A stretch of 64,000 nucleotides of DNA from an uncultured bacterium. Lineage in GTDB: Bacteria > Hinthialibacterota > Hinthialibacteria > OLB16. The DNA is taken from contig CAYRBI010000001.1 of assembly GCA_964422415.1 (NCBI GenBank), positions 62,678-126,677 on the forward strand, in the 5' to 3' direction. The stretch's first letter is position 1; each line of letters starts with the position of its first letter. Under the pieces are notes generated by a model, which did no database searches, had not been told where the DNA came from, and saw nothing but the letters and a program-made list of their open reading frames with translations. This document shows positions 5,611 to 60,030 of this stretch, in pieces. A program made the position numbers and the translations under genes.

Positions 5611-5737
5611 GGCTGCCGTTTCCCCCCCCACCCCCACCCTCCCCCGCCAGGAGGGAGGGAGAAAAAACACACTAAAGTGTGAACAACAAACAACTCCCTC
5701 CCACCTAGCGGGGGAGGGTGGGGATGGGGGGGACGGC
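5611..5737. repeat. GC-rich nested-palindrome intergenic repeat, copy R1 (subfamily A)
   Basis: Outer arms CTGCCGTTTCCCCCCCC / GGGGGGGACGGCAAG, inner hairpins CCCTCCCCCGCCAGGAGGGAGGG and CCCTCCCACCTAGCGGGGGAGGG, central palindrome CACACTAAAGTGTGAAC; sits between convergent genes (ends 5599 and 5745), so likely also a bidirectional terminator. Confidence 0.6.
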
Positions 5738-5744
5738 AAGCAGA

Positions 5745-6848
5745 TCAACCCAGCCGCTTCTGGAAGCGGAGCGCGCTCAAGGCCACCAAGACCACGGCGA
5801 AGATGACTAACGCCACTGTCTGCGGCCAGAGGGCCCACAGTCCGGCTCCACGCAGGATGATCCCACGTAAGATCTGCACGTAGTAAGTGACCGGAATCAA
5901 GAAAGTGGCCATGTAGATCGGAAAGGGCATGGTCTCGCGCGGAAAGGCAAAGCCAGACAAAAGGACGGAGGGGAGCATAATGAGCATCCCGATTTGCATC
6001 GCCTGGCTTTGGGTCTGAGAGACCGTGGAAACGAGAATCCCCATCGCCAGCGCGGGGAGTAAGAACAACACCGACAAGGCCAGTAACAGGAAAACATCAC
6101 CCTCGACAGGAACTCCAAACAGGTACCGCATCAAGACCAAAACGAAGATGGTCTGAACAATGCCCAGCAGGGAGTAAGGCACCAGCTTGCCGATGATGAG
6201 CGCCCACTTGGAAACCGGTGTGACCACCAACTGTTCCAATGTGCCACGCTCTCGTTCACGGACTACCGCAAAGGCGGTCAGGAATACAGTCACGACCTGA
6301 AGGACTATGCCGATCAGTCCCGGGACATAGAAATGCGAGCTGTCCAGGTTCGGATTGAAGAGTACCCAGGGACGGACATCCAGAGAACGTAACGCTGGAT
6401 TAATACCCGCTCTCACCAGGGAATGGATCTGACCAACGCCGAGAGCGGTCTGGACCGCATTGGTGGCCACCGAGCTGTCCGATCCATCCACAAGAACCTG
6501 CACCGTGGCTTGCTCACCCCTGAGTAATTTGGCGCTGTAATCAGGCGGCACGAGAATTCCAACTTTGGCTTTTCCCGCCACAATCTGGCGGTGGATCTCG
6601 TCTTCACCCGCCACCTCCTGAAGTACCCGGAAGGTGTTGGTATTGGCGAAACTCTCAATCAGGCGGCGGCTCTCCACGCTCCGGTCCATGTCATATACCA
6701 CGGTGGGAATATGCTGGACATCCATGTCGATGGCAAAGCCGAAGATGATGGTCTGGATAGCGGGGACTAGGAATACGAATCGAGTACTCGGGTCCCTACG
6801 GATCTGCAGGATCTCCTTGTATACAATCGCCCAGAAACCCCGCATCAT
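5745..6848 (-). CDS. ABC-2 family transporter permease
   Basis: 367 aa; N-terminal 'ILQIRRDPSTRFVFLVPAIQTIIFGFA' then large periplasmic loop and 5 C-terminal TM helices, the YhhJ/ABC-2 layout; last gene of HlyD-ABC operon; start overlaps upstream gene by 4 nt. Confidence 0.8.
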   Translation of the reverse strand: MMRGFWAIVYKEILQIRRDPSTRFVFLVPAIQTIIFGFAIDMDVQHIPTVVYDMDRSVESRRLIESFANTNTFRVLQEVAGEDEIHRQIVAGKAKVGILVPPDYSAKLLRGEQATVQVLVDGSDSSVATNAVQTALGVGQIHSLVRAGINPALRSLDVRPWVLFNPNLDSSHFYVPGLIGIVLQVVTVFLTAFAVVRERERGTLEQLVVTPVSKWALIIGKLVPYSLLGIVQTIFVLVLMRYLFGVPVEGDVFLLLALSVLFLLPALAMGILVSTVSQTQSQAMQIGMLIMLPSVLLSGFAFPRETMPFPIYMATFLIPVTYYVQILRGIILRGAGLWALWPQTVALVIFAVVLVALSALRFQKRLG

Positions 6849-7798
6849 CCGCTTATACCTCCGTGACCATGCATGGCGGTCTGATGGTCTCCATCCTTGC
6901 CATCCGCCTTACGGGTTTGATCACGGATCTCCTTGGGAACATACAAGTCTGGGAAAAGCTTGGCGGCGCATTCCTCGCAAAGACCATGGCTGAAGTGAGC
7001 CTCCGAGTGTTCGGTCAAGTACACCTCGATCTGGGTCCAATATCCTGAGTCACTGCGGATTTTCTTGCAGCTCGCACAGATCGGCAGTAAACCCGAAAGC
7101 GCTTTCACCTCTTTGAGGGCATGACTGAGTTGCTCGATGAGTTCTTCTTGTTTCTTCTGCAAGCTGGCCTTCAATGAGATATCCCGGGCGATGACAAAAA
7201 GAGCGGCACAACCACCGCCCAACGCCAGGAAACCGATCAGATAGATGAGTTGTTTGGCGGCATAGGTCCTTTGGTTAACGATCGCCTCGCGTTGTTCCGA
7301 TTCTTTAAGGATCTCGTTGGTCAAAGCCTCAATCGAAGAGAGAATCTGGTTGGTAAGATCAGTTCCCTTTGATGTAGCAAAACGCTGTAATTCCCAATCA
7401 CCATTCTCTTGAAAGAGCGTCATGGAATCATAAAGATTCAACAGTTTTTCATCGACGATTTGTTTGATTTCCACGACTCGCTTCAAGAATTCAGGATGAT
7501 CTTGGGAAAAATTCAAAACTTCCGCTATTTCTTTCTTGGTTAACTCGACTCCATCCTTGTAGATCTTCATTGCGGAAGGATTACGTGTGAGGATATAACC
7601 ACGGCGGCCATTCTCCGCCAGGAGAACCGCCGGAGTGATATCACCCAACTCTTTCGTGAGAGTAGACCATTCGAGCTGGTCTTTCCCCGCCGCGCGTAGC
7701 GCATCGATGGAACCGAGTGATATCAGGCTCACCACCAAGAGTATACCTAACGACACCACGAATCCCGCGACAATCCAGGTCAAGATGGACTTAAGCAT
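6845..7798 (-). CDS. membrane signalling protein: TM - CHASE3-like periplasmic domain - TM - coiled coil - C-terminal Cys/His-rich (CxxC...H...H..CxxC) putative zinc-binding module
   Basis: 'ENGRRGYILTRNPSAMKIY' matches the CHASE3 hallmark E-x-G-x-RGY-LT; second TM 'LIYLIGFLALGGGCAALFVIA'; C-terminus 'ICASCKKIRSDSGYWTQIEVYLTEHSEAHFSHGLCEECAAKL'; no kinase, cyclase or HTH output recognisable. Confidence 0.6.
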   Translation of the reverse strand: MLKSILTWIVAGFVVSLGILLVVSLISLGSIDALRAAGKDQLEWSTLTKELGDITPAVLLAENGRRGYILTRNPSAMKIYKDGVELTKKEIAEVLNFSQDHPEFLKRVVEIKQIVDEKLLNLYDSMTLFQENGDWELQRFATSKGTDLTNQILSSIEALTNEILKESEQREAIVNQRTYAAKQLIYLIGFLALGGGCAALFVIARDISLKASLQKKQEELIEQLSHALKEVKALSGLLPICASCKKIRSDSGYWTQIEVYLTEHSEAHFSHGLCEECAAKLFPDLYVPKEIRDQTRKADGKDGDHQTAMHGHGGISG

Positions 7799-7810
7799 CA
7801 GATCTCCTCA

Positions 7811-58635: not shown

Positions 58636-58828
58636 AATGGTATTATAGTTCACCCACCGGTTCCACTGCTGGGAAGGTCTCATCCGACGGGGTGATTTTT
58701 TATTTTGTTGCATCATAGTTGGCACAATGGGAATTCAATTCCCACGCCATATGAAATGCGGAATTAGTTTACTACTCCAGCAAGGAGAATGGTGGAGAAG
58801 GCAACCCCCCGGCGGAGCGAGCCCCACC

Positions 58829-59908
58829 CTACCGCCCCAGATTCTCGAACAGATACAGCCCCTCTTTCCCCGGTGCGACAATATCCTTCCAGCCGTTGCC
58901 GTTGAGGTCCTCGACCCAGAAATAAATCCCCGCGCCGCTGCATTCGGAGGGGTCGCCATAGTCGAGGGTCACCCGCTCGAATTTACCGTGATCCATCTTG
59001 AAGTAGTACAGCCCAATCGGATCCTTCTCGCCGGGGTCATTGCCGCAATGGGCACGGTAACGTTGGCCGGTGATGAGCTCGAGCTCGCCATCATTATCGA
59101 TATCCACCAACTGCAAATCGTGATACTGCGAACGGGTGGGATCGATATCATGTTTGATCCAGCTGCGGTTGCCCTTGCTGTCCTTACACTGCTCAATCCA
59201 GGCCAAACCATAATTATGCGCCGCACCCACAATCAGATCGGGCAGGCCATCGCCATTCACATCATGCACCAGGATCGGAATACTCGCACAGCCCAGGTTA
59301 AAATCGGGGTGCCAGATCCATTCTTTGTTAAGCGGATCATCGGTTGGCTTTAACCAGCCGGTCGAGAGAATGATCTCGCCGCGTCCATCCCCATCGATGT
59401 CGCCGAACCCAAGCCCATGCCCACTGGGGAAATCACAGATTTTGTGCTTGCTGAAGGCTTCCCTGCCCTTGCCATGCTCATCCTTCTGCAACTTGTAGAA
59501 GGCTTGGTAAACCCCCGGGGTGTTCGGAACAATCTCGACCTCGCCATCGCCATCCACATCCCAGAAGCGGGTGGTCTCAATGCTGCCGGGACAATCGATG
59601 TCATGCACCGCCCATTCGCGGAGTTCGCCCTTGGGATTCTCGATCCACCGCAGGGTCTGCCCCCACCAACCGCCGGTAATGATGTCGAGAAAACCATCGC
59701 CATTCACATCCATCGGGTAGTCTGAGAAGTCATCGAAATAATCCTCGACCGGCAGGATGGAACGGATCTTGTGCCGTTTGACAAAATCTGGCCCCTCAAA
59801 CCAGTACTCACCCGAAACAATATCGAGAACACCGTCATTGTTGACATCAAACACCGCGGCAGCCTCATAGGTGACATCACTGATACGCCGTTTGCGGAAT
59901 TTGAGCAT
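58829..59908 (-). CDS. FG-GAP/VCBS repeat beta-propeller protein (no signal peptide)
   Basis: Repeated 'DVNNDGVLDIVSGE', 'DVNGDGFLDIITGGWW', 'DVDGDGEVEIV', 'DIDGDGRGEIILSTGW', 'DVNGDGLPDLIVGAAH', 'DIDNDGELELITGQ', 'DLNGNGWKDIV' motifs; GGGAGG RBS. Confidence 0.7.
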   Translation of the reverse strand: MLKFRKRRISDVTYEAAAVFDVNNDGVLDIVSGEYWFEGPDFVKRHKIRSILPVEDYFDDFSDYPMDVNGDGFLDIITGGWWGQTLRWIENPKGELREWAVHDIDCPGSIETTRFWDVDGDGEVEIVPNTPGVYQAFYKLQKDEHGKGREAFSKHKICDFPSGHGLGFGDIDGDGRGEIILSTGWLKPTDDPLNKEWIWHPDFNLGCASIPILVHDVNGDGLPDLIVGAAHNYGLAWIEQCKDSKGNRSWIKHDIDPTRSQYHDLQLVDIDNDGELELITGQRYRAHCGNDPGEKDPIGLYYFKMDHGKFERVTLDYGDPSECSGAGIYFWVEDLNGNGWKDIVAPGKEGLYLFENLGR

Positions 59909-59949
59909 GGTGGGCCTCCCTTGGGTTGGTTTTTTTGTGCCGCAATTAT

Positions 59950-60030
59950 TACCTCATTCCCCCACCCCCTTCTCCCATAGGGCGAAGGGGGAGCATGTCC
60001 CCTCTCCCTGTGGGAGAGGGGATCTAGGGG
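59950..60030. repeat. GC-rich nested-palindrome repeat, copy R6 (subfamily B)
   Basis: ACCTCATTCCCCCACCCCCTTCTCCCATAGGGCGAAGGGGGAG...CCCCTCTCCCTGTGGGAGAGGGGATCTAGGGGTGAGGT; between two co-directional minus-strand genes. Confidence 0.55.

What the first reader, a model, noticed from the sequence alone, without database searches (positions are those of the whole stretch)
5611..60030. Family of nested-palindrome GC-rich intergenic repeats (6 copies in 64 kb) with a conserved AT-containing core palindrome
There are copies at 5611-5737, 18764-18893, 45822-45936, 53931-54027, 54428-54575 and 59950-60030. Subfamily A (R1-R3, R5) has poly-C/G outer arms, CCCTCCCCCGC[C/A]AGGGGGAGGG-type inner hairpins and the core GTTCAC(A/G)CTTTAG(T/C)GTGAAC. 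Subfamily B (R4, R6) has ACCTCA/TGAGGT outer arms and the inner hairpin TCCCTGTGGGAGAGGGG. Copies occur between convergent genes (likely bidirectional terminators), but also in a divergent promoter region (R5) and between tandem genes. This looks like a REP/BIME- or MITE-like element family. The conserved core palindrome suggests a protein-binding site, e.g. for a REP-associated tyrosine transposase or a nucleoid protein. The repeats also spawn spurious Gly/Pro-rich ORFs.
Basis: seen in the sequence. Interest (0 to 1): 0.55.

Follow-up and report, generated by a model that had tools for sequence, protein, structure and literature searches.

The report
BoxC-type palindromes carrying RAYT REP hairpins
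The six GC-rich nested palindromes are real and combine two known kinds of small bacterial repeat: BoxC-like C-tract/G-tract arms and, in four copies, a short hairpin that in many other genomes flanks a REP-associated tyrosine transposase gene; the combination looks new, the components are not.

Summary
All six copies exist. The 17-nt core occurs 5 times against 0.03 expected, and the hairpins fold at -59 to -111 kcal/mol.

The core is not a GTTCAC...GTGAAC palindrome. It is an oriented unit: a 5' tag (GTTYGGA or GTATGTT), then GTT, a 5-bp stem and a TTKA loop.

A public-genome scan found the same unit, mostly as inverted doublets, across Planctomycetota, Verrucomicrobiota, Lentisphaerae, Kiritimatiellae, Acidobacteriota and other phyla. 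In 80 metagenomic loci picked only by a Y1 (HUH) transposase gene, units are 57 times denser within 300 nt of that gene. All five stem pairs covary.

The arms are a second known element: the BoxC / PIT / intrastrand-triplex motif. R6 matches E. coli BoxC at 21/21 plus 9/9 bases.

R1-R3 hold a single REP between inverted BoxC-like halves, seen nowhere else among 127 REP singlets. R5 is a REP doublet with degenerate arms. R4 and R6 have no REP.

Close relatives lack R3 and R5, or carry only a simple hairpin at the R3 and R6 sites. The outer hairpins have no T-tract, so they are not canonical terminators. No transposase gene lies in the window, and the source genome could not be scanned.

The parts
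5611..5737 (-). R1: composite element (BoxC-like arms plus one REP unit), between convergent genes (pseudopilin-like 4736-5599 on +, ABC-2 permease 5745-6848 on -)
5623..5661 (.). R1 C-rich arm including an inner hairpin; pairs with 5694-5732 (92% complementary)
   Evidence: (I8)
5668..5691 (-). R1 REP unit: core GTTCACACTTTAGTGTG (5668-5684) plus 5' tag GTTTGTT (5685-5691), read on the - strand
5694..5732 (.). R1 G-rich arm (BoxC/TM-like: CCCTCCC-loop-GGGGGAGGG-T-GGGGATGGGGGGG)
18764..18893 (+). R2: composite element between convergent genes (17364-18737 on +, 18914-20176 on -)
18772..18808 (.). R2 C-rich arm CCCCCCCACCCCAACCCTCCCCCGCCAGGGGGGAGGG; 100% complementary to 18845-18881
   Evidence: (I7)
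18813..18836 (+). R2 REP unit: tag GTATGTT plus core GTTCACGCTTTAGCGTG
18845..18881 (.). R2 G-rich arm, BoxC/TM-like (CCCTCCCCCC-TGGC-GGGGGAGGG-TT-GGGGTGGGGGGG)
45822..45937 (+). R3: composite element between the tandem genes S41 peptidase and TsaD. The site is empty in L198 and on the P0124 contig, and L196 has a simple hairpin without the REP
45867..45890 (+). R3 REP unit: tag GTTCGGA plus core GTTCACACTTGAGTGTG
53931..54027 (.). R4: BoxC-type inverted pair without a REP (TM-like motif 53985-54018, CCTTCTCCC-TGT-GGGAGAGGGG-GGCT-GGGGGGGT). It lies at a synteny break relative to relatives
   Evidence: (I11)
54428..54575 (.). R5: REP doublet (REPIN-like) with degenerate C/G arms, in the divergent HAD/ferredoxin intergenic region; absent from relatives L283 and L284
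   Evidence: (I14, D8)
54453..54476 (+). R5 left REP unit: tag GTTTGGA plus core
54516..54539 (-). R5 right REP unit: core 54516-54532 plus tag, read on the - strand
59951..60036 (.). R6: BoxC-type inverted pair without a REP. 59998-60034 is CCCTCTCCC-TGT-GGGAGAGGG-GATCTA-GGGGTGAG, identical in its blocks to E. coli BoxC/TMECO type B. Relative L284 has only a simple hairpin at this site

Best explanation
The six repeats are non-coding palindromic elements assembled from two known kinds of module.

(1) Arms. All six have arms of the BoxC / PIT / 'triplex-motif' type: a pyrimidine block, a loop, the complementary purine block, a short loop and a second G-rich block. The two halves are arranged as an inverted pair, so that either strand reads 5'-C-rich...G-rich-3' and folds into one very long hairpin.

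(2) REP units. Four copies (R1, R2, R3, R5) carry in the centre one or two REP units: tag GTTYGGA or GTATGTT, then GTT, a 5-bp stem and a TTKA loop.

Proposed mechanism (inferred). The REP unit is the single-stranded-DNA substrate of a roughly 200-aa Y1 HUH enzyme with an NHYH motif, a RAYT/TnpA-REP encoded elsewhere in the genome. The enzyme reads the tag and loop by sequence and the stem by shape. R5 is an ordinary REP doublet. In R1-R3 one REP became fixed between BoxC-like halves, and this roughly 115-nt composite was then copied as a unit to several loci.

The elements are recent gains, or they are lost quickly. Their effect on the host is probably incidental: very stable hairpins at the ends of transcripts and local genome instability, rather than designed terminators.

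Shown: the identity of both modules, the REP-RAYT association in other genomes, stem covariation, and presence/absence at three orthologous sites.
Inferred: that a RAYT exists in this genome, and that it, rather than another process, copies the composite.
For: REP module:
- The core is enriched in the window (5 against 0.03 expected).
- 201 of 373 units form inverted doublets.
- In L115 a RAYT-like gene is flanked by units on both sides.
- Among 80 loci chosen by protein alone, 42 have units within 300 nt and 35 have them on both sides. Density is 3.6 per kb near the gene against 0.063 per kb further away. Control patterns give 0-1 hits against 174.
- With a pattern using only the tag and loop, 165 of 225 matches have a fully complementary stem, against 21 expected.
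- On a hand-filtered alignment of those matches plus the 5 window units (A3): 97.2% of cells are paired, all 5 pairs show changes on both sides, and the covariation score is 0.768 against 0.160, reached by 0 of 500 shuffles.
- Protein: the HUH motif NHYH and the catalytic Tyr are invariant; 35 of 35 members match NF047646 REP_Tyr_transpos; the only PDB hit is 4ER8 TnpA-REP at E 3.5e-9.
- Only 2 RAYT-like ORFs occur in 114 REP loci, so units far outnumber genes.

Arm module:
- E. coli TMECO no. 1 is CCCTCTCCCTGTGGGAGAGGGCCGGGGTGAGGGC and R6 is CCCTCTCCCTGTGGGAGAGGGGATCTAGGGGTGAGGT.
- blastn of the right half of R6 hits 4710 of 5426 E. coli genomes.
- The three-block architecture is found 7 times in the window, always inside R1-R4 and R6.
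- The same arm motif, also as nested pairs with other spacers, is widespread in IMG/VR contigs.

Dynamics:
- R3 is absent in L198 and on the P0124 contig, and is a REP-less hairpin in L196.
- R5 is absent in L283 and L284.
- R6 is a simple hairpin in L284.
- R1-R3 share the same junction spacing and are 86-88% alike.
Against: - No RAYT gene lies in the 64-kb window, and the rest of the source genome could not be read.
- R1-R3 hold a single REP, whereas the REPIN model needs two inverted REPs to move.
- The tag is GTTYGGA-GTT, not the canonical GT[AG]G.
- The RAYT proteins score just below the NCBIfam cut-off (72 against 80 bits) and below Pfam's gathering score.
- 38 of the 80 RAYT loci show no unit under the strict pattern.
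- BoxC-like motifs are rare near REPs elsewhere (1 case, L012), so the link between the two modules rests on this genome alone.
- There is no target-site duplication. The bases just outside the arms are complementary to each other (GCCGT/ACGGC, TGTT/AACA, AT/AT), which simple insertion does not explain.
- Presence/absence in relatives could equally reflect deletion.
Confidence: 0.62

Rival explanations
1. In-situ palindrome growth. The BoxC-type nested palindromes are not transposed. They arise and expand at pre-existing short C-first hairpins by replication template switching or slippage and by repair of non-B DNA. The REP was captured once as a passenger, and similar copies reflect gene conversion or local duplication.
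For: - At the R6 site the relative L284 has a simple hairpin, CCCCCCTCTTC..GAAGAGGGGGG, that corresponds to one inner hairpin of R6.
- At the R3 site L196 has a REP-less hairpin with the same outer arms.
- The bases flanking the arms are complementary to each other rather than directly repeated.
- The two arms of one copy are more alike than arms of different copies, with compensatory changes.
- Holder et al. report that palindromic triplex-motif pairs undergo partial deletions that keep a hairpin, and link the motif to instability.
- R4 sits at a synteny break.
Against: - R1, R2 and R3 lie 13 and 27 kb apart in unrelated intergenic regions, yet share identical architecture, junction spacing and 86-88% identity, including loops and the non-palindromic core. 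That requires copying of the whole unit to new sites.
- The same arm motif recurs across unrelated taxa, which in-situ growth alone does not explain.
Confidence: 0.2
2. Selected RNA or DNA structural elements. The hairpins are kept because they act as bidirectional terminators, barriers to 3' exonucleases, or insulators between genes.
For: - R1 and R2 fill convergent intergenic regions, and R3, R4 and R6 follow gene ends.
- The hairpins are extremely stable on both strands.
- Compensatory changes keep the pairing.
- A smaller C-first hairpin after the S41 peptidase gene is conserved, with compensatory changes, in three relatives.
- The REP mini-hairpin is often followed by a T-rich tail.
Against: - The outer hairpins have no T-tract, and terminator-like sites are not above the shuffle expectation.
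- R5 lies in a divergent promoter region.
- The R3 and R5 elements are missing from the orthologous sites of close relatives, and at the R6 site the relative has only a simple hairpin, so they are dispensable.
- PIT/BoxC elements had no terminator or promoter activity in E. coli, as reported in PMC4666352.
Confidence: 0.08
3. A MITE of a DDE-type insertion sequence. The 37-42 nt arms are terminal inverted repeats recognised by a classical transposase, and the REP is only cargo.
For: - The terminal inverted repeats are long and near-perfect, and the element is about 115 nt.
- BoxC-like inverted pairs in IMG/VR contigs carry spacers of different length and content, as if they were cargo (L206, L209, L225, L240, L248).
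- Presence/absence varies among relatives.
Against: - There are no direct target-site duplications at R1-R3.
- No transposase gene with matching ends is in the window or in the relatives' loci.
- The arms are made of the three-block BoxC motif, which also occurs alone as a half element.
Confidence: 0.05
4. The core is the palindromic operator of a transcription factor or the site of a nucleoid protein, and is not a transposase substrate.
For: CACACT-TT-AGTGTG is a 6+6 dyad, and R5 lies between divergent genes.
Against: - Stem bases change freely as long as pairing is kept, even between the two units of one doublet. That fits a folded single strand, not a duplex operator.
- Units cluster around RAYT genes.
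- They occur in every intergenic context.
Confidence: 0.02

Closest known systems
REP / BIME / REPIN elements with their RAYT (TnpA-REP) transposases (E. coli, Pseudomonas; PDB 4ER8)
   Same: - Short hairpin with a conserved 5' tag.
- Many intergenic copies against a rare gene.
- Inverted doublets with variable spacers.
- Several stem variants around one gene.
- Units flank the Y1 HUH gene on both sides.
- The protein matches REP_Tyr_transpos and 4ER8.
   Different: - The tag is GTTYGGA-GTT (or GTATGTT-GTT) instead of GT[AG]G.
- The stem has only 5 bp, with a fixed TTYA loop.
- The tag and loop are conserved across several phyla, whereas REP sequences are usually lineage-specific.
- In the window three copies are singlets locked inside a 37-42 bp GC hairpin.
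- I found no paper containing the unit's sequence. The REP families that Di Nocera et al. 2013 report for Opitutus and Rhodopirellula encode different peptides.
BoxC / PIT elements / TM-ECO intrastrand-triplex motifs (Bergler 1992; Hoyne and Maher 2000; Holder et al. 2015, PMC4666352)
   Same: - Three-block architecture: Y-block, loop, R-block, loop, R-block.
- The blocks of R6 and R4 are near-identical to E. coli type B (CCCTCTCCC-TGT-GGGAGAGGG...GGGTGAGG).
- Occurrence as inverted pairs.
- Intergenic location.
- Association with rearranged or variable loci.
   Different: - Pair orientation is reversed. In the window the third blocks are outermost and pair with each other; in the E. coli hrpB/mrcB pair they are innermost.
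- Subfamily A uses CCCTCCCCC/GGGGGAGGG and a poly-G third block.
- A REP in the spacer is not reported for BoxC.
- Triplex or G-quadruplex formation was not tested here.
RAYT subclass 2.8 of Quentin et al. 2018 (PMC6006769)
   Same: About 199 aa; HUH motif NHYH; W[YH]; Y-x-H-x-NP; proline-rich N-terminus. The consensus of A1 shows LPNHYH, VWH, NY-HHNPVKH and PWHSPPH.
   Different: That subclass was described from Cyanobacteria, with long canonical GT[AG]G REPs. Membership was compared only through the published motif table, not by phylogeny.
MITEs and nested palindromic repeats (Correia/NEMIS, ERIC, RUP; IS1397 inserting into BIMEs)
   Same: Size of 80-150 nt, long inverted repeats, intergenic position, presence/absence among relatives, and palindromic elements nested within each other. 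This comparison rests on my own knowledge.
   Different: No target-site duplication, no related DDE transposase, and arms built from the BoxC motif.
Rho-independent (bidirectional) terminators
   Same: A GC-rich hairpin at the 3' ends of convergent genes.
   Different: No U-tract; the stem of about 40 bp is far longer than in terminators; the sequence family is shared between loci; the R3 and R5 elements are absent from the orthologous sites of relatives.

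Membership tests
REP/REPIN-RAYT system | Short (20-40 nt) imperfect palindrome that forms a stem-loop | tested here: met
   The unit is 24 nt: a 7-nt tag, GTT, a 5-bp stem and a 4-nt loop. On the hand-filtered alignment A3, 97.2% of stem cells are paired and all 5 pairs covary. 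With the unbiased tag-and-loop pattern, 165 of 225 matches have a fully complementary stem against 21 expected.
REP/REPIN-RAYT system | Conserved 5' GT[AG]G tetranucleotide at the foot of the hairpin | tested here: not met
   The conserved 5' sequence is G-T-(T/A)-(T/C)-G-G-A followed by GTT. It resembles the canonical tag but is not the same.
REP/REPIN-RAYT system | Units flank a RAYT gene, typically on both sides | tested here: met
   Met in other genomes. 42 of 80 RAYT loci have units within 300 nt, and 35 have them on both sides; the enrichment is 57-fold. L115 is a clear example. For the source genome itself this is not testable: no RAYT lies in the window.
REP/REPIN-RAYT system | Many dispersed, mainly intergenic copies per genome against one or a few transposase genes | tested here: inconclusive
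   There are 5 units in the 64-kb window. Several MAGs contribute 4-7 separate loci although the scan was cut short. Only 2 RAYT-like ORFs occur in 114 REP loci. No whole-genome count was possible.
REP/REPIN-RAYT system | Inverted doublets (BIME/REPIN) that form a long hairpin | tested here: met
   201 of 373 units have an inverted partner within 130 nt. R5 is such a doublet. R1-R3 are singlets.
REP/REPIN-RAYT system | The associated protein is a Y1 HUH enzyme of the TnpA-REP type | tested here: met
   NHYH and a Tyr are invariant. 35 of 35 members match NF047646. 4ER8 is the only PDB hit. Scores lie just under the curated cut-offs.
BoxC / PIT / intrastrand-triplex motif | Pyrimidine block, loop, complementary purine block, short loop, second G-rich purine block | tested here: met
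   The pattern scan finds 7 instances in the window, all inside R1-R4 and R6.
BoxC / PIT / intrastrand-triplex motif | Sequence similarity to the E. coli BoxC/TMECO consensus | tested here: met
   R6 matches TMECO no. 1 at 21 of 21 and 9 of 9 block bases. blastn hits 4710 of 5426 E. coli genomes at 84-87% identity. Subfamily A shares the architecture but not the exact blocks.
BoxC / PIT / intrastrand-triplex motif | Forms an intrastrand triplex (or G-quadruplex) as a single strand | not testable with these tools
   The folding tools model Watson-Crick hairpins only. The G arms do contain four or more G-runs.
MITE | Terminal inverted repeats plus a direct target-site duplication | tested here: not met
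   Terminal inverted repeats are present. The flanks are complementary to each other, not directly repeated.
MITE | A related autonomous element with the same ends | tested here: inconclusive
   None in the window or in about 77 kb of relatives. The full genome is not available.
Intrinsic terminator | GC-rich hairpin immediately followed by a T/U tract | tested here: not met
   The outer hairpins are not flagged. Only the inner hairpin of R2 and the REP mini-hairpins with T-rich tails are listed, and totals are not above the shuffles.
Rfam structured RNA | Match to a curated covariance model | tested here: not met
   No hits at gathering score in the window or in 16 REP loci.

The most novel reading that the evidence does not exclude
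The roughly 115-nt composite is a new type of non-autonomous element. A single RAYT-recognised REP hairpin provides the recognition and cleavage site. The BoxC-type inverted halves replace the second REP of a REPIN by providing the fold-back. This would mean that BoxC/PIT-type palindromes, whose origin and spread have been unexplained since the 1990s, can be moved by a Y1 HUH transposase, or are preferred landing sites for it.
Probability: 0.2. Interest if true: 0.7.

Novelty: new variant of a known kind. Interest (0 to 1): 0.45.

Why it matters
1. It defines a REP family whose tag and loop are conserved across at least five phyla while the stem covaries freely. This is a natural map of what this RAYT clade reads by sequence and what it reads by shape. 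It can be tested directly with oligonucleotides and one purified enzyme.

2. It links two repeat classes, REP and BoxC/PIT, that have been studied separately. Close relatives that lack the elements at the same sites give a natural system for asking how BoxC-type palindromes arise and spread.

3. For annotation, these elements create false Pro/Gly-rich ORFs and may be mistaken for terminators.

Tried and rejected
- Rfam at gathering score on the window and on 16 REP loci: nothing. No tRNA or tmRNA.
- Exact look-ups of window proteins to reach the rest of the source genome failed. The contig is known only as a 126,677-nt NCBI record.
The nearest named ferredoxin homologues are Phycisphaerae at about 60% identity.
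- Full-text searches for the REP unit in eight spellings returned no relevant paper.
- A RAYT sequence recalled from memory was used only as a lead to find ORFs. Its hits were then checked against Pfam, NCBIfam and PDB.
- attC (integron) sites were considered and rejected: the GTT/AAC ends are in the inverse arrangement.
- CRISPR was considered for the tandem arrays in L100 and L037 and rejected: the 'spacers' are identical.
- A general REP-BoxC association was tested and not found outside the window: 1 case in 1.1 Mb.
- The terminator reading was tested and not supported.
- The strict unit pattern requires perfect pairing, so it could not be used to argue covariation. The test was repeated with a pattern of tag and loop only.
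- The alignment used was hand-filtered to remove obvious chance matches. One search is the unbiased figure.

Full report
**Observation.**
R1, R2 and R3 form a 110-111 nt family. R1 lies in the opposite orientation: it is 88% and 86% complementary to R2 and R3, while R2 and R3 are 86% identical as direct copies. Each copy has arms of 37-42 nt that are 92-100% complementary. The core pattern GTTCACRCTTKAGYGTG occurs five times against 0.03 expected. As RNA the elements fold at -96 to -111 kcal/mol for R1-R3 and -59 to -90 kcal/mol for R4-R6. No shuffle folds as well.

Two details of the description needed correction. First, the core is not a GTTCAC...GTGAAC palindrome; it is an oriented unit, GTT-CACRC-TTKA-GYGTG, preceded by a 7-nt tag. 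Second, R6 ends at 60036. R5 contains two inverted units. R4 and R6 have no core. The repeats do create spurious Pro/Gly-rich ORFs.

**Gene context.**
R1 and R2 fill convergent intergenic regions. R3, R4 and R6 lie between tandem genes. R5 lies between divergent genes. Rfam and tRNA searches found nothing.

**What the core is.**
Apart from about a dozen isolated hits that lack the tag, these come from:
- Planctomycetota (about 38 stretches);
- Verrucomicrobiota (about 27);
- Lentisphaerae and Kiritimatiellae (8);
- Acidobacteriota (7);
- Calditrichota, Hydrogenedentota and Sumerlaeia;
- unclassified MAGs.

The flanks show a conserved unit: G-T-(T/A)-(T/C)-G-G-A, then GTT, a 5-bp stem and a TTYA loop. 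Usually an inverted partner follows 10-40 nt downstream, which is the case for 201 of 373 units. The two stems of one doublet often differ by compensatory changes, for example CACGC/GCGTG paired with CAAGC/GCTTG in L022. This suggests that the small hairpins matter, not only the long one.

**The link to a transposase.**
A RAYT sequence recalled from memory, used only as a lead, picked out two ORFs in these loci. One of them, in L110/L115, is a 227-aa protein flanked on both sides by units. It has about 1,800 homologues of roughly 200 aa. Their alignment keeps an NHYH (HUH) motif and a tyrosine invariant. All 35 aligned members match NCBIfam REP_Tyr_transpos, just under its cut-off. The only PDB relative is E. 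coli TnpA-REP, 4ER8.

I then fetched 80 metagenomic loci chosen by this protein alone.
- A strict unit pattern gave 174 hits, against 0-1 for eight control patterns.
- 42 loci have units within 300 nt of the gene, and 35 have them on both sides.
- Density is 3.6 per kb near the gene and 0.063 per kb elsewhere.

The strict pattern demands pairing, so I repeated the search with only the tag and loop. Then 165 of 225 matches have a fully complementary stem, against 21 expected when partners are shuffled. On a hand-filtered alignment of such matches plus the five window units, 97.2% of cells pair and all five pairs show changes on both sides. The covariation score is 0.768 against 0.160, reached by 0 of 500 shuffles.

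This is the signature of a REP and its RAYT. By its motifs the protein clade resembles subclass 2.8 of Quentin et al. 2018. That is a resemblance, not a tested placement.

**What the arms are.**
Among 127 REP singlets in all fetched loci, only the three window copies sit inside a long GC hairpin, so the arms are not part of the REP family. Scans of viral contigs with arm patterns showed the same C-tract motif in many unrelated contigs, both as half elements and as nested pairs with other spacers.

A literature search on arm sequences led to Holder et al. 2015 (PMC4666352) on the BoxC / PIT / intrastrand-triplex motif. E. coli TMECO no. 1 is CCCTCTCCCTGTGGGAGAGGGCCGGGGTGAGGGC. R6 reads CCCTCTCCCTGTGGGAGAGGGGATCTAGGGGTGAGGT. 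blastn of that half of R6 hits 4710 of 5426 complete E. coli genomes. A scan for the three-block architecture finds seven instances in the window, all inside R1-R4 and R6. It finds only six in 1.1 Mb of REP and RAYT loci, one of them near a REP.

The window pairs have the third blocks outermost. The E. coli hrpB/mrcB pair has them innermost. The spacer of R5 also holds a degenerate BoxC-like hairpin, as read from the sequence.

**Dynamics.**
The window's TsaD is identical to a protein from a 126,677-nt NCBI contig. Its nearest relatives are at 85-87% identity, then 63-71%, then about 50%. The organism is therefore an uncultured, poorly sampled lineage.

- R3 site (S41 peptidase | TsaD). L198 and the P0124 contig have a 64-69 nt spacer with no element. 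L196 has the same outer arms as a simple hairpin without the REP. The window has the full composite.
- R5 site. Relatives L283 and L284 have 141 and 138 nt with no element, against 250 nt in the window.
- R6 site. L284 (flanking proteins 80% and 94% identical) has only CCCCCCTCTTC-aatac-GAAGAGGGGGG, which corresponds to one inner hairpin of R6.
- R4 lies where synteny with the relatives breaks.
- No REP unit occurs in about 77 kb from relatives.

R1-R3 share junction spacing and show compensatory arm changes. This argues that the composite was copied as a unit.

**Function.**
The outer hairpins lack a T-tract and are not flagged as terminator-like. Only the REP mini-hairpins with T-rich tails and one inner hairpin are listed, and totals do not exceed the shuffles. 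Earlier work summarised in PMC4666352 found no promoter or terminator activity for PIT/BoxC in E. coli, and a link with genomic variability.

**Conclusion.**
The finding is a chimera of two known repeat kinds. The REP identification is well supported. Three points remain inferred: that a RAYT exists in this genome, that it copies the single-REP composite, and why BoxC-like halves and REPs are joined here. The bases just outside the arms are complementary to each other rather than directly repeated, which neither simple transposition nor chance explains well.

I rate it a new variant of a known kind, of moderate interest.

Noticed in passing
window 28614-28699: A second, unrelated nested palindrome between convergent genes. 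The arms are 30 nt and 100% complementary, and each contains the hairpin ATTCCCGC-CTTC-GCGGGAAT. It looks like a REP doublet of another family. There is a weak partial match at 1115-1149.
   Followed up: partly
window 45750-45792; L196 2899-2939; L198 1782-1816: A small C-first hairpin directly after the S41 peptidase stop codon is conserved in three relatives with compensatory changes (CCACCCCCAC / CCATCCCCAC / CCACCCCCATG). It is a better candidate for a functional 3'-end structure than the large repeats.
   Followed up: partly
window 33449-33483: Another simple C-first hairpin, CCCCCTCTCCAGG...CCTGGAGAGGGG, between two minus-strand genes. It has the BoxC-like block composition but no third block.
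   Followed up: no
window 53886-54036 and 55572-58829, compared with L283, L284, L285: Gene order differs from close relatives on both sides of the ferredoxin/HAD pair. In relatives flagellar rod genes follow the ferredoxin gene, whereas the window has DUF6259 after R4. About 3.2 kb of genes separate HAD and the FG-GAP gene in the window but not in L284.
   Followed up: partly
L115 38-2814: The RAYT-like gene flanked by REP units lies directly downstream of Cas_GSU0053 and Cas_GSU0054 genes (part of a CRISPR-Cas locus) in a Verrucomicrobiota MAG.
   Followed up: no
L100 1-130; L037 6527-7094: Head-to-tail arrays of the REP unit with identical spacers (periods of 30 and 40 nt), rather than inverted doublets.
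   Followed up: no
L013, L060, L106: Contigs labelled Bifidobacteriaceae (co-assembly bins) carry canonical PVC-type REP doublets. They are probably mis-binned.
   Followed up: no
L225 7306-7466; L206, L209, L240, L248: In IMG/VR contigs, BoxC-like inverted pairs with the window's arm orientation enclose spacers of about 8 to 100 nt with unrelated content, as if the pair could carry different cargo.
   Followed up: partly
window 5605-5622 / 5733-5742; 18767-18771 / 18882-18885: The bases just outside the homologous arms are complementary within each copy but differ between copies (GCCGT/ACGGC, TGTT/AACA, AT/AT). This is unexplained.
   Followed up: partly
L043, L048, L105; L072, L090: In some genomes the REP unit or doublet is embedded in longer repeated flanks shared between loci. 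Examples are a Verrucomicrobia MAG and Pyrinomonadaceae, where a 23-nt outer inverted repeat surrounds the unit. REP-containing composites of other kinds therefore exist.
   Followed up: no
window 23739-28541: A 1600-aa ORF with internal C-rich direct repeats (for example CACCTCAACCCCCACCCCC at 24977 and 26735). These are coding repeats unrelated to the intergenic family.
   Followed up: no
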